This document shows, one piece after another, positions 10,700 through 19,895 of a stretch of DNA of 52,343 nt (its first letter is position 1; every line of letters starts with the position of its first letter). Origin of the DNA: Octopus sinensis (lineage: Eukaryota). The position numbers and the translations under genes are program-made. The DNA lies in assembly GCF_006345805.1 (NCBI RefSeq), contig NW_021832984.1, positions 1 through 52,343 of the forward strand, given 5' to 3'. Below the pieces are notes generated by a model. That model had not been told where the DNA came from, did no database searches, and was given only the letters and a program-made list of their open reading frames with translations.

Positions 10700-10836
10700 T
10701 GGGAATAAATTAAAAATAAAATTAGCGTGCAGAAATGGAATAGTCCAGTTGGATAATAAAAAATTAAATTAAAGAAAAAACTATTGTCTATAAAGTATAC
10801 AATGTAGAGAAAAAAGATTTGAACACATCGAGGAAA
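10700..10836 (+). pseudogene. 5' part of an interrupted Tx1-type ORF1 fragment (insertion host)
   Basis: Translates KEKTIVYKVYNVEKKDL, which aligns with ENKTVTYRTQDKNTNKL of the ORF1 at 12737. Continues at 19606. Confidence 0.6.
10824..10836 (+). repeat. Target-site repeat 1 (CACATCGAGGAAA)
   Basis: Recurs at 12596, 14382 and 19606, at every element junction. Confidence 0.9.
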
Positions 10837-12595
10837 TTTACCCAAGTGTGTTGTTATCTGTGATTAGACGTTGAAATTTTGTTGTGTAAAGTGATTAATA
10901 TCGCGCGAGGCGTTTGCCTCCACGTGTGGAAACCTTCCGAAGAAGGTGAATTGACCCTCTAGTCATGGCGACTTACGCGGGGGTCACGGGAAAGAAAAAT
11001 AATGATTCGTCGATAATCGTGAAGGATGTTTTCTTTGAGAAGAGTAAACTCAAAGAATACGAAAAGCTATTCAAAAGGGAGGGTGATAGCGTGAAGCTGG
11101 TCCCCCCGCGAAAGCAAAGGAGGACAAGGAAACAAACTGTAACGTATAGAACCCAGGACAAAAGTACAAAGAAACTGGCAAGAGTGGAGATAGCAGAGAT
11201 CGAAAAATGTCTGGGAGACATAATGGATAATCGACCTACGTGAGTAGAGGAAAAAAATTTGGTACGGTGGAGGTGAGATGTGCAACGGAAGAAATTGCAG
11301 CCTCACTGGCTACCACTGTTCTAAGAGCGGAAACATTTATAATGTGGCCCTCATACAAGGGAAGAAGAGGGGTCCGGGTTAAAATCCCGAATATACCCCC
11401 AGAAGTAAAAACAGAATGGCTGGCAACAGCTATTCTAGGAGCAGCAGAAGAGGAAGTGGAGGTGGAATCCTTTAAGGAGTCCAACGCAGTAAATTGGAGA
11501 GGATATGGGGTAGAACTGTGTTTGATGGCCACAAAAGAGGACATTGAAAGGTTCCCCTATAGAATAGAAATCGAAGACGAGAAAACCCTCAGTGTAATTG
11601 TAGAGGGAAGAAAGCCAAACTGCTACTTGTGCGGGACAAGGGGGCACATTAAAAAAGAGTGCCCGTTATATGAATTCATGGCGGAGTATGAGAAGGAAAA
11701 TGAAGAAAAGAAGAATACGGTAAATGAAAAAGAAAACATAGAAAAGGAGACAAAACAACAAGAGAAAGGAAATAATAAGTCAACGAAGGAAAAAGAAATA
11801 AAAGAAAAGAAAGAAATAGAACCAAAACAGAGTCAGGAAAAGAAAAAGGAAAAAGAAACAACAGGAAAAAAACAAGAGAGAGAACAGAACCAAACGAAAA
11901 GAAAAGACGGCACACAAAAAGAAAAAGAAAAGGAACATAAAACACGAGAGAAAGAGAGAACAGACAAAGAACCAAAAAGACAAGAGAAGGAAGAAGAAAG
12001 AAAAGAAGGCAAAAAGAGAGAAAGAGAGAAACAAAGAGAGGAGAACAAGGAAGAAATAAGCCCGAAAAGAAAACGAGAGAAAACGTAGGACGGAAACAAG
12101 ATTACTACAAGTTAATAACCTTCCATTTCAGCCCCGAAATGAAGGAATTGACATGTAGTATGGAGGGACATGTGTGGGTCAACAGGATGACTGATCAGTG
12201 GCAGGAGACTGCTCTGATCCCCGAAGAAAGAGTCGCTGAGTTCCTCAGAGCAGCTGAGAGAGTGTAATTTTTACACGTGTTCGAGTGAAGAGCGGCTGCC
12301 TGAGGGCTCAGTGATTGACTTTAGAGACTTGAAAAGTATTATGGAATACGTGTGAGATTGTGAGAGGAGAGAGAAGAAAGAAGAGAAAAAGAAAAAAAAA
12401 ATTGTGAACTATAGGTGACGAAAATGTAACCTCTCGATTCCGGGGATCGAGTGGGCATTGCATCTCATTGTAATATTCTTTCATTTGTCATTTTTATTTT
12501 TATTTTTTTCCCTTCTTGTCATTTCGCTTTCTTATTTTAAGTTCCCCGATTGTATTGTCCCCTCTATGTTCGCCCCTTGTGGGTAGTAATAAAAT
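10837..12595 (+). mobile_element. ORF1-only non-autonomous Tx1-type retroelement, copy 1
   Basis: Single gag-like ORF, no EN/RT. 3' tail shared with the LINE at 14397-19605. Bounded by target repeats. Confidence 0.85.
10965..12354 (+). CDS. ORF1p (N-terminal domain, CCHC zinc knuckle, K/E-rich linker, C-terminal domain), frameshifted in this sequence
   Basis: Start MATYAGVTG; knuckle CYLCGTRGHIKKEC; K/E-rich region. After a frameshift near 12080 it continues ..DYYKLITFHFSPEMKELTC..WQETALIPEERVAEFL. Confidence 0.75.
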
Positions 12596-12608
12596 CACAT
12601 CGAGGAAA
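12596..12608 (+). repeat. Target-site repeat 2 (CACATCGAGGAAA)
   Basis: Direct reading. Confidence 0.9.
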
Positions 12609-14381
12609 TTTACCCAAGTGTGTTGTTATCTGTGATTAGACGTTGAAATTTTGTTGTGTAAAGTGATTAATATCGCGCGAGGCGTTTGCCTCCACGTGTG
12701 GAAACCTTCCGAAGAAGGTGAATTGACCCTCTAGTCATGGCGACTTACGCGGGGGTCACGGGAAAGAAAAATAATGATTCGTCGATAATCGTGAAGGATG
12801 TTTTCTTTGAGAAGAGTAAACTCAAAGAATATGAAAAGCTATTCAAAAGGGAGGGTGATAGCGTGAAGCTAATCCCCCCCGCGAAAGCAAAAGAGGACAA
12901 AGAAAACAAGACTGTAACATATAGAACCCAAGACAAAAATACAAATAAACTGGCAAGAGTGGAGATAGCAGAAATCGAAAAATGTCTGGAAGACATAATG
13001 GGGAAATCGACCTACGTGAGTAGAGGCAAGAAATTTGGTACGGTGGAGGTGAGATGTGCAACGGAAGAAATTGCAGCCTCACTGGCTACCACTGTACTAA
13101 GAGCGGAAACATTTATAATGTGGCCCTCATACAAGGGAAGAAGAGGGGTCCGGGTTAAAATCCCGAATATACCCCCAGAAGTGAAAACAGAATGGCTGGC
13201 AACAGCTATTCTAGGAGCAGCAGAAGAGGAAGTGGAGGTGGAATCCTTTAAGGAGTCCAACGCGATAAACTGGAGAGGATATGGGGTAGAACTGTGTTTG
13301 ATGGCCACAAAAGAGGACATTGAAAGGTTCCCCTACAGAATAGAAATTGAAGATGAGAAAACCCTCAGTGTAATTGTAGAGGGAAGAAAGCCAAACTGCT
13401 ACTTGTGCGGGACAAGGGGGGAACATTAAAAAAGAGTGCCCGTTATACGAATTCGTAGCGGAGTGCGAGCAGGAATTTGAAGAAAGAAGAATACGGTAAA
13501 TGAAAAAGAAAACATAGAAAAGGAAACAAAACAACAAGAGAAAGGAAATAATAAGTCAATGAAGGAAAAGAAATAAAAGAAAAGAAAGAAATAGAACCAA
13601 AACAGAGTCAGGAAAAGAAAAAGGAAAAAGAAACAACAGGAAAAAAACAAGAGAGAGATCAGAATCAAACGAAAAGAAAAGACGGCACACAAAAAGAAAA
13701 AGAAAAGGAACATAAAACACGAGAGAAAGAGAGAACAGACAAAGAACCAAAAGACAAGAGAAGGAAGAAGAAAGAAAAGAAGCAAAAAGAGAGAAAGAGA
13801 GAAACAAAGAGAGGAGAACAAGGAAGAAATAAGCCCGAAAAGAAAAACGAAGGAAAACGTAGGACGGAAACAAGATTACTGCTTCTACAAGTTAGTAACC
13901 TTCCATTTCTGCCCTGGAAATGAAAGAATTAACATGTAATACGGAGGGACATATATGGGTCAACAGGATGACCGATCAGTGGCAGGAGACTGCTCTAATC
14001 CCCGAAGAAAGAGTCGCTGAGTTCCTCAGAGCTGCCGGAGAGAGTGTAATATTTTACACGAGTGTTCGAGTGAGAGAGCGGCTGCCTGAGGGCTCAGTGA
14101 TTGACTTTAGAGAATTGAAAGTTATTATGGAATACGTATAGAATTGTGAGAAGAGAGAGAAGAAAAGAAGAGAAAAAAGAAAATATTGTGAAATATATGT
14201 GACGAAAATGTAACCTCTCGATTCCGGGGATCGAGTGGGCATTTACATCTCATTGTAAATATTCTTTCATATGTCATTTTTTACTATTAATTTTTCCTTT
14301 TCTTGTCATTCGCTTTCTTATTTTAAGTTCCCCGATTGTACTGTCCCATCTATGTTCGCCCCTTGTGGGTAGTAATAAAAT
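12609..14381 (+). mobile_element. ORF1-only non-autonomous Tx1-type retroelement, copy 2
   Basis: Colinear with copy 1, same 5' end, scattered substitutions. Confidence 0.85.
12737..14141 (+). CDS. ORF1p, copy 2 (frameshifted)
   Basis: ORF-track 12737-13429 (230 aa, ends in the zinc knuckle) and 13920-14141 (C-terminal domain). Confidence 0.75.
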
Positions 14382-18900: not shown

Positions 18901-19361
18901 ACAGAGGAGCTCTACCTGTTCGGGATAAACTCGCAAGGCACGGTGGCCAAGACAGTCCGATATGTCCAAGATGCGGGCGGGATAGGAAACCGTCCCGCAC
19001 GCTATTGTTCATTGTCCGGACGTGTCTGCTGTGTGTTTATGCCGAACACCTGTTGTCAGGTACACGAAGAGTACAGCTGTCGACTGAGTCGATTACAAAA
19101 ATTGACCCACCGGATTTCCTCGTGAATGAAGGTAAGTTTCGTTTTCTCGTTGTAGTAGCAATTGCGAAAGAGGTGATATGGAAGACGAGAAAGAAAGGTT
19201 TACAGTCAGGCAAGTTCATCTCCGGCCCTGGTTTGATGAATTATTTCATCTTTCACCTGAAAAGGAAGATAGGGCTGGAGAGAATATGCCTGACTAGGAG
19301 AGTGTATGAAGAACGATGGAAGGATGTAGCACGAAAGTTGCGAGTGAAAGATACAACATAA
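15969..19361 (+). CDS. ORF2p APE endonuclease / reverse transcriptase / C-terminal zinc finger (several frameshifts)
   Basis: Motifs CLNVRGL, VLGDFN, YLDRILI, SDH, GKAPGLDGLP, FRPITLLNTELKILAK, LDQSKAFDRV, SVRQGCPLSPLLY, YADD, LSLKGR, CPRCG. Confidence 0.9.
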
Positions 19362-19605
19362 ATGTAATACAAGCGCAACCAAAAGTATCAGTGGGGAGGC
19401 GGGGCTCGTGGGGTCCGAGCTAAACCCGCACCCACTCCACCCGTAATGTCTTCCGGTCTGTCCCATCATTCGATTTCTGTCCATTTATTGTAATTCATGA
19501 AAATTTTTAAATCCGATTTATTGTAAAAACCCATTCGTTTGTCTGACCCCATCATCAGATTGTATTGTCCCATCTATGTTCGCCCCTTGTGGGTAATAAT
19601 AAAAT

Positions 19606-19895
19606 CACATGGAGGAAAGCACATTCGAAAAGTGTCTTGGTGCGACTATGAAAGGTATCTAATCAGAGGCGGTAAATTCGCCACAATAGAAGCAAGGTTC
19701 GAGTCAACGGAGCGTGCAAGGGAATACTCGACTCGAACTTGCAAAGTGGAAATATTTTATTTTTACGTAGGACGTCCCGGATAAAAATTAAAAATATCCA
19801 CCCTGAAGTAGAGGTAGGCTGGATTATAGCCACACTTCTATACAAGAGGGAGGACAAGATACAATTGATCGAAATTACAAGAGACGGGCTAACAA
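19606..19895 (+). pseudogene. 3' part of the interrupted Tx1-type ORF1 fragment (starts with target repeat 4)
   Basis: HMEESTFEKCLG / YLIRGGKFATIEARFESTERA / RIKIKNIHPEVEVGWIIATLL align with EIAEIEKCL / YVSRGKKFGTVEVRCATEEIA / RVKIPNIPPEVKTEWLATAIL. Confidence 0.8.

What the first reader, a model, noticed from the sequence alone, without database searches (positions are those of the whole stretch)
10770..19895. The insertion target is the ORF1 coding sequence of a related retrotransposon; the inserted elements differ at that site
Seen: joining the flanks gives KEKTIVYKVYNVEKKDL(K)HMEESTFEKCLG..YLIRGGKFATIEARF..NIHPEV (needs one extra A near 10822). This is colinear with both inserted ORF1s (KLARVEIAEIEKCL; MIQKIEEKKIESCL). 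The homologous DNA in the inserted elements (GCAAGAGTGGAGATAGCA near 11178; CAAAAAATCGAAGAAAAA near 14963) does not match CACATGGAGGAAAGC. Inference: a retrotransposon that targets a relative's ORF1 while its own copy of the site is resistant, consistent with TE-versus-TE conflict.
Basis: partly seen in the sequence, partly recalled or inferred. Interest (0 to 1): 0.82.

Follow-up and report, generated by a model that had tools for sequence, protein, structure and literature searches.

The report
LINE clan nests in Helitron cargo
A family of retrotransposons and its ORF1-only passengers insert at one spot in a high-copy Helitron that carries a dead piece of a distant relative's ORF1 gene, and stack next to each other there, which is likely use of a safe repeated site rather than an attack on a rival element.

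Summary
The flanks are ORF1-derived and colinear across the site. The interrupted object, however, is a non-autonomous Helitron of about 1.2 kb (TC...hairpin-CTAG; 2025 first-look candidates) that captured the 5' end of a distant LINE lineage, 'C'. In the window it holds two ORF1-only elements (A1, A2) and one APE-RT element (B). Genome-wide there are 1021 empty and 119 filled exact sites. The allele closest to the donor ORF1 is filled in 12 of 586 copies, the derived frameshifted allele in 107 of 554 (p=1e-23). All 7 close C-lineage LINE copies are uninterrupted at the site, a small sample. A and B match the target at 6/15 and 9/15 bases, which is background for 24-33% protein identity. The elements are not resistant: siblings insert at their target-like 5' junctions, building arrays of up to 11 units from at least five families. 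This works like Tx1L or Tx1-Mar targeting DNA transposons, plus HeT-A/HAL1-like ORF1-only passengers. The new features are a Helitron target, a target inside captured ORF1, and a multi-family array community.

The parts
10139..10836 (+). Left part of non-autonomous Helitron (short subfamily HS); starts TC after A; contains a 140-bp internal duplication
10755..10836 (+). Captured ORF1 relic of LINE lineage C, upstream of the site (KEKTIVYKVYNVEKK / RFEH)
10824..10836 (+). 5' junction linker CACATCGAGGAAA (target-like; the C variant also occurs at other A loci, L133 and L143)
10837..12595 (+). Element A1: ORF1-only non-autonomous retroelement, ORF1 from 10965 (frameshifted in this copy), CCHC knuckle, 3' tail shared with B
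12596..12608 (+). A1/A2 linker, identical to the 5' junction linker
12609..14381 (+). Element A2: second ORF1-only unit, 94% identical to A1 (4.5% substitutions), ORF1 from 12737
14382..14395 (+). A2/B linker CACATGGAGGAAAG (target duplication)
14396..19605 (+). Element B: autonomous-type L1-group (Tx1-like) LINE; ORF1 from 14610, ORF2 15969-19361 (APE, RT, zf-RVT); both broken in this copy; an intact 1132-aa ORF2 lies at L210:3245-6640
19558..19605 (+). About 48-bp 3' tail shared by A and B (no poly(A); ends TAATAAAAT)
19606..19890 (+). Target 15-mer CACATGGAGGAAAGC and downstream ORF1 relic of lineage C, with frameshifts shared by HS copies
19606..20076 (+). Right part of the Helitron; hairpin GACCCG-GCAACGA-CGGGTC at 20047-20065, CTAG at 20073-20076 followed by T

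Best explanation
A young clan of L1-group (likely Tx1) retrotransposons inserts at one position of an abundant non-autonomous Helitron, inside a dead ORF1 fragment that the Helitron had likely captured from a distant LINE lineage, and likely uses it as a repeated safe site. Shown: Helitron ends, ORF1 origin of the site, site specificity, allele preference, shared 3' tails, tandem arrays with constant linkers, and inserts younger than their flanks. Inferred: B-type ORF2 nicks at GAAC^ACATGG and primes reverse transcription. ORF1-only families (A, D, E, F) borrow an ORF2 through their similar 3' tails. Transcripts start inside the parent's upstream target duplication, so each insertion leaves a target-like 5' junction that siblings re-use and arrays grow mostly 5'-ward. 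A, D and B leave duplications of about 7-18 bp. E and F join about 8-11 bp further upstream and delete target bases. Pairing of RNA ends with the target probably helps, as described for R2. The ORF1 origin of the site is most likely incidental.
For: Helitron ends: hairpin plus CTAG|T in 17 of 17 copies printed; A|TC in about 12 of the 14 whose 5' end was located. A longer subfamily HL holds C's 5' UTR and ORF1 codons 1 to about 176. 3' flanks (Helitron / sibling 5' end / other): B 19/4/7, A 7/18/5, E 16/14/0, each of 30. Exact sites: 1021 empty, 119 filled. Donor-like allele 12 of 586 filled versus 107 of 554 for the rest, Fisher p 1.2e-23. C-lineage LINEs are decayed, few (7 motif hits) and uninterrupted. 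The RT tree puts C with G, far from B (bootstrap 100). In 5 H-E-D-B arrays divergence runs E 1.4 < D 2.0 < B 2.8 < Helitron flank 4.3%. Older sister lineages have 0 of 50 Helitron 3' flanks, but 16 of 50 are followed by a relative. Element-borne 5' leaders replace target bases at L092, L123, L130 and L142. An 18-bp TSD is seen at an off-target B (L103/L034).
Against: A target that lies in a relative's ORF1 is a coincidence under this model, and I did not measure how likely that coincidence is. Five of seven families (F, F2, E, D, B2) match the target at only 1-4 of 15 bases (1st to 12th percentile), though the window is also below average among non-C pairs (5.4 versus 7.3). The exact donor family of the Helitron cargo was not found; the closest copies are 82% identical, so its occupancy is unknown. 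A units are more alike within arrays (1.0%) than between them (2.45%), so local duplication or conversion may also build arrays. Flank tallies come from the 30 copies most similar to each query, which favours young copies. No nicking or transposition assay was done.
Confidence: 0.75

Rival explanations
1. TE-versus-TE conflict: B evolved to cut a rival LINE's ORF1 while its own ORF1 escaped by diverging at the site.
For: The site is ORF1-derived and colinear. No sibling ORF1 was found interrupted at the homologous site among 240 locus-level hits, which are redundant because loci overlap. Some siblings are unusually unlike the target there.
Against: The preferred allele is the derived, frameshifted Helitron allele. 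Donor-lineage LINEs are decayed and 0 of 7 are hit. A and B show background identity at the site. Siblings are hit at their 5' junctions. Nucleotide identity to C is only 43-52% overall, so a mismatch is expected anyway.
Confidence: 0.06
2. The ancestors of B already preferred a site in C-lineage ORF1; Helitron capture later multiplied that pre-existing target.
For: It would remove the coincidence. C-lineage copies match the 15-mer at up to 13 of 15 bases, and the donor-like allele is used at 2%.
Against: The 50 sampled copies of older sister lineages have heterogeneous 3' flanks: unrelated sequence, or the start of a relative (full-length or 5'-truncated), none at this site of the C ORF1. No C-lineage LINE copy is filled.
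Confidence: 0.1
3. The association and the arrays come from DNA-level events: Helitrons carried an early insertion along (hitchhiking) and unequal crossover multiplied the units.
For: Within-array A units are 0.3-1.5% apart in three long arrays, against 2.45% between arrays. The arrangement H-E-D-B recurs.
Against: Helitron flanks are more diverged than the inserts (4.3% versus 1.4-2.8%; filled 3' flanks 7.3% versus B tails 4.0%). Different families, 5'-truncated units and leaders of variable length sit at the same junction. A1 and A2 differ by 4.5%.
Confidence: 0.09

Closest known systems
Tx1-Mar with SINEU (crocodilians) and Tx1L into Tx1D (Xenopus), per PMC4494074 (passages and sections 14 and 15 read)
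   Same: APE-RT elements that prefer one position in an abundant non-autonomous DNA transposon; non-autonomous passengers share the target; tandem copies sandwich a TSD.
   Different: The target here is a Helitron and lies in captured LINE ORF1 DNA. The passengers are 1.7-1.9 kb ORF1-coding elements of several families, not snRNA-headed SINEs. Arrays reach 11 units and about 19 kb.
HeT-A, HAL1 and Ag-Sponge ORF1-only non-autonomous LINEs, per PMC5786205 (passage read)
   Same: They encode only ORF1p and depend on an autonomous partner. A ORF1 shows purifying selection (pN/pS 0.13). Head-to-tail mixed arrays resemble HeT-A/TART (recalled).
   Different: That passage lists only the Jockey, L1 and CR1 clades. 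Here the arrays are interstitial, inside a Helitron, and the ORF1s are far from B's own ORF1 (about 30-40% aa), so they are not simple deletion derivatives of B.
R2 co-transcription and flank annealing, per PMC6795142 (passages read)
   Same: 5' junctions are shaped by co-transcribed upstream target sequence; downstream target sequence in the RNA improves insertion.
   Different: R2 uses a restriction-like endonuclease and 28S rDNA. Here several different leader sequences are inherited, and 3' read-through is only inferred.
Non-autonomous Helitron with captured sequence (defining features recalled)
   Same: A|TC start, subterminal hairpin, CTAG|T end, captured fragment.
   Different: The cargo is the 5' UTR and ORF1 start of a LINE, and it has become the landing site of other LINEs.

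Membership tests
L1-group non-LTR retrotransposon (element B) | ORF2 with N-terminal APE endonuclease, RT and C-terminal zinc-binding region | tested here: met
   Intact copy L210: PF03372, PF00078, PF13966; best PDB match L1 ORF2p E 8e-66 versus R2 E 4e-26
Tx1 clade | RT groups with named Tx1 families (Tx1L, Keno, Kibi, Koshi, Tx1-Mar) | not testable with these tools
   None of the 120 listed RT homologues carried a Tx1 name; the tree holds only this genome's families
Tx1 clade | ORF1 with an RNA-binding region and CCHC knuckle (feature recalled) | tested here: met
   zf-CCHC above the cut-off in A and D. A CxxCxxxGHxxxxC motif is visible in the other families, though Pfam missed or scored it weakly in B, F and E. 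The C model gave only weak RRM matches, best E 1.5e-3
Tx1 clade (target-specific members) | More than 20% of flanks in one repeat (criterion of PMC4494074) | tested here: met
   B 19 of 30, E 16 of 30, A 7 of 30 directly flanked by the Helitron
Non-autonomous Helitron (target) | 5' TC after A; 3' hairpin then CTAG before T | tested here: met
   window 10139 and 20047-20077
Non-autonomous Helitron (target) | An autonomous RepHel partner with the same ends exists | not tested
   No search made
   The relic ends at codon about 176 and runs into the Helitron end; 0 of 7 C-lineage LINE copies are hit
ORF1-only non-autonomous LINE (A, D, E, F) | ORF1 present, ORF2 absent, 3' tail similar to an autonomous partner | tested here: met
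   The E/F tail resembles that of B2, but B2 is old and low-copy, so the E/F partner is not settled

The most novel reading that the evidence does not exclude
The target is inherited through the RNA. Each copy's transcript carries its own flanking target duplication at both ends, so progeny anneal to and insert at sequences like the parent's site. That would turn an unspecific, tandem-forming LINE clan into a Helitron-specific one as soon as one copy landed in a high-copy repeat. The alternative linkers (TGGCTCCAAGCTA, TGTCGGAAATC) would be a memory of earlier sites, and several ORF1-only families would share this heritable address.
Probability: 0.25. Interest if true: 0.78.

Novelty: new variant of a known kind. 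Interest (0 to 1): 0.47.

Why it matters
It adds a Helitron, and LINE-derived cargo within it, to the targets used by APE-type site-specific retrotransposons. It also shows a very young target shift: older sister lineages are unspecific, the young clan is specific, and two target alleles differ about 10-fold in use. This is a natural system for asking how much of the specificity comes from the endonuclease and how much from RNA-DNA pairing. It also documents a community of ORF1-only passengers forming HeT-A/TART-like arrays away from telomeres. The claim of a retrotransposon attacking a rival's ORF1 does not survive testing.

Tried and rejected
Two degenerate pattern searches for an intact direct donor found only Helitron copies or unrelated hits (7 hits, all Helitron: 2 hits, one Helitron and one apparently unrelated, judged from the printed match only). 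The pattern also missed the known C-lineage copies, so it was weak. A protein search with the relic among longer proteins found nothing. Sequencing runs: no RNA holder was listed, which is no evidence on expression; contigs of 4 runs cover the long Helitron, but no donor contig could be retrieved. The fold search of the C fragment gave no match at E <= 0.001. Selection on the captured ORF1 in 30 HL copies gave pN/pS 0.62 with 11 stop variants and changes spread over all codon positions; this uncorrected count is close to neutral and similar to young E copies (0.58), so it is not decisive. Twelve off-target 3' flanks contained no C-lineage LINE; one was a rearranged Helitron site. Earlier findings of the scan: none returned. 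Paper searches that found no description of this system. The library lacks most subscription journals and Repbase, and no supplements were read. The Octopus vulgaris repeat paper PMC13282606 (passages only) lists 13 recently active L1-Tx1 families and has no occurrence of 'target' or 'nested'.
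Full report
Anatomy. The region reads: left flank | A1 (10837-12595) | A2 (12609-14381) | B (14396-19605) | right flank. CACAT[CG]GAGGAA lies at all four junctions, and A and B share a 3' tail of about 48 bp. A1 and A2 encode only an ORF1 with a CCHC knuckle; B has ORF1 plus APE-RT, broken in this copy. An intact B ORF2 of 1132 aa elsewhere has PF03372, PF00078 and PF13966 and is closest to L1 ORF2p among solved structures. Named homologues of A ORF1 are Octopus proteins.

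What the target is. The downstream flank gave 2025 first-look candidates. Of 30 loci fetched (the window included), 23 have the two flanks joined and 7 carry an insertion at the same point. The repeat is about 1.0-1.2 kb, begins A|TC and ends with a hairpin and CTAG|T, which marks it as a non-autonomous Helitron (criteria recalled). In this short subfamily the ORF1 homology is spread over several frames in every copy printed. A longer subfamily (HL, 1583 candidates) retains a 5' UTR and ORF1 codons 1 to about 176, with an open frame across the site in 3 of 30 copies. That frame aligns without a gap across the site with seven ORF1 families at 24-33% identity.

The donor. Using a distant relative (P0243) as the query, I found the source lineage C: LINEs with ORF1 and ORF2, up to 83% aa and 82% nt identical to the cargo, with broken ORFs. 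A motif across the capture breakpoint has 7 hits genome-wide, and all 7 are uninterrupted at the site. Of 30 wider relatives, 27 aligned across the site (2 weakly) with no insertion, and 3 did not align. These samples are small: even a 19% rate predicts about one hit in 7. The exact donor family was not found. In an RT-region DNA tree of 14 natural copies (1 short copy left out), C groups with family G and apart from B, B2 and H.

Specificity and allele preference. The 3' flanks of the 30 best copies of each family (Helitron / sibling 5' end / other) are B 19/4/7, A 7/18/5 and E 16/14/0. Off-target sites mostly begin AC[AGC]TG. Exact patterns count 1021 empty and 119 filled sites. Split by a diagnostic base downstream of the junction, the donor-like allele is filled in 12 of 586 copies and the rest in 107 of 554 (p 1.2e-23). 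Eleven of those 12 keep the target's own ACCTGG, so the junction does not overwrite the allele. The better target is thus the allele that changed inside the Helitron after capture, the opposite of what targeting of C's ORF1 predicts.

'Resistance'. In a codon alignment, A matches the 15-bp target at 6 bases (40th percentile of same-phase windows) and B at 9 (81st). F, F2, E, D and B2 match at 1-4 (1st to 12th percentile). The window is also less conserved than average among distant non-C pairs (5.4 versus 7.3), and C pairs are somewhat lower still (3.9 versus 7.0). For the two families in the window there is no sign of escape. More importantly, the elements are hit elsewhere. Of 30 B 5' ends, 25 follow a sibling's tail, 4 the Helitron and 1 other DNA; of 30 A 5' ends, 17, 9 and 4. 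Arrays in the fetched regions hold up to 11 units from ORF1-only families A, D, E, F and their variants plus B, ordered Helitron-[E/F]n-[A/D/B]m-Helitron, with a linker that is nearly constant within an array and differs between arrays.

How it likely works. Shown: at some Helitron junctions the element's own leader (for example TGGCTCCAAGCTA) replaces target bases (L092, L123, L130, L142); an off-target B has an 18-bp duplication; E and F join upstream with loss of target bases; leaders of variable length and 5'-truncated units occur inside arrays. Inferred: target-primed reverse transcription from a nick at GAAC^ACATGG; trans-mobilisation of the ORF1-only families through their tails; transcripts that include the parent's duplication, which regenerate a target at each new 5' junction. 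Divergence in five H-E-D-B arrays falls from Helitron (4.3%) to B (2.8%), D (2.0%) and E (1.4%), consistent with independent insertion and 5'-ward growth, not hitchhiking (different regions were compared, so this is approximate). A units are closer within arrays than between them, which fits local re-insertion but also duplication or conversion. Older sister lineages have no Helitron flank in 50 copies but are followed by a relative in 16, so tandem stacking is old and Helitron specificity is recent. A ORF1 is under purifying selection (pN/pS 0.13), whereas the captured ORF1 looks close to neutral (0.62, uncorrected).

Comparison. It works like Tx1L/Tx1D and Tx1-Mar/SINEU, where Tx1 families prefer a site in a DNA transposon and tandem copies sandwich a TSD (PMC4494074). 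Its passengers are of the HeT-A/HAL1/Ag-Sponge kind (PMC5786205), and its flank effects are like those of R2 (PMC6795142). Targeting of 'other TEs' is listed as known in PMC8869645 (passage). Tx1 membership by phylogeny could not be tested. My paper searches found no report of a Helitron target, of a target in captured ORF1, or of these octopus arrays, but Repbase and subscription journals were not searchable.

Verdict. Interest 0.47.

Noticed in passing
window 36300-52343: 26-bp satellite (612 copies, 93% matches) with very long open frames on the minus strand, directly abutting an RT-coding LINE fragment at about 35256-36300.
   Followed up: no
window 1690-4080 (-) and 7460-8757 (-): Fragments of another APE-RT LINE, and of a GIY-YIG/RT element that looks Penelope-like (judged by eye from the ORF list).
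   Followed up: no
L218 4281-9940 (G000:C4:77.07 Mb): B and a 5'-truncated F sit in tandem at the same non-Helitron site (18-bp TSD), head-to-head with an older autonomous relative B2.
   Followed up: partly
L206+L154+L207 (G000:C9:478-497 kb): An 11-unit array of about 19 kb inside one Helitron, with several open ORF1s of 370-480 aa and leaders carrying 14-23 bp of upstream Helitron sequence.
   Followed up: partly
L204/L222 (G000:C28:5.31 Mb): Full-length relative G with a 16-bp TSD (GAGTTAGTTCCCCTTG) unrelated to the Helitron site; sister to lineage C.
   Followed up: partly
L170 870-1830: The long Helitron subfamily is covered by contigs of runs from three coded organisms (A, C, D). A few contigs at 83-86% identity stop near the capture breakpoint and may be donor-lineage LINEs.
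   Followed up: partly
L052 1706-2300: B followed by a short A 5' stub and then an inverted Helitron right half and E tail: a rearranged array.
   Followed up: no
L308: An older B-like copy whose 5' junction reads TTTGAACCACGGCGG, resembling the present target although it has no Helitron 3' flank before it.
   Followed up: no
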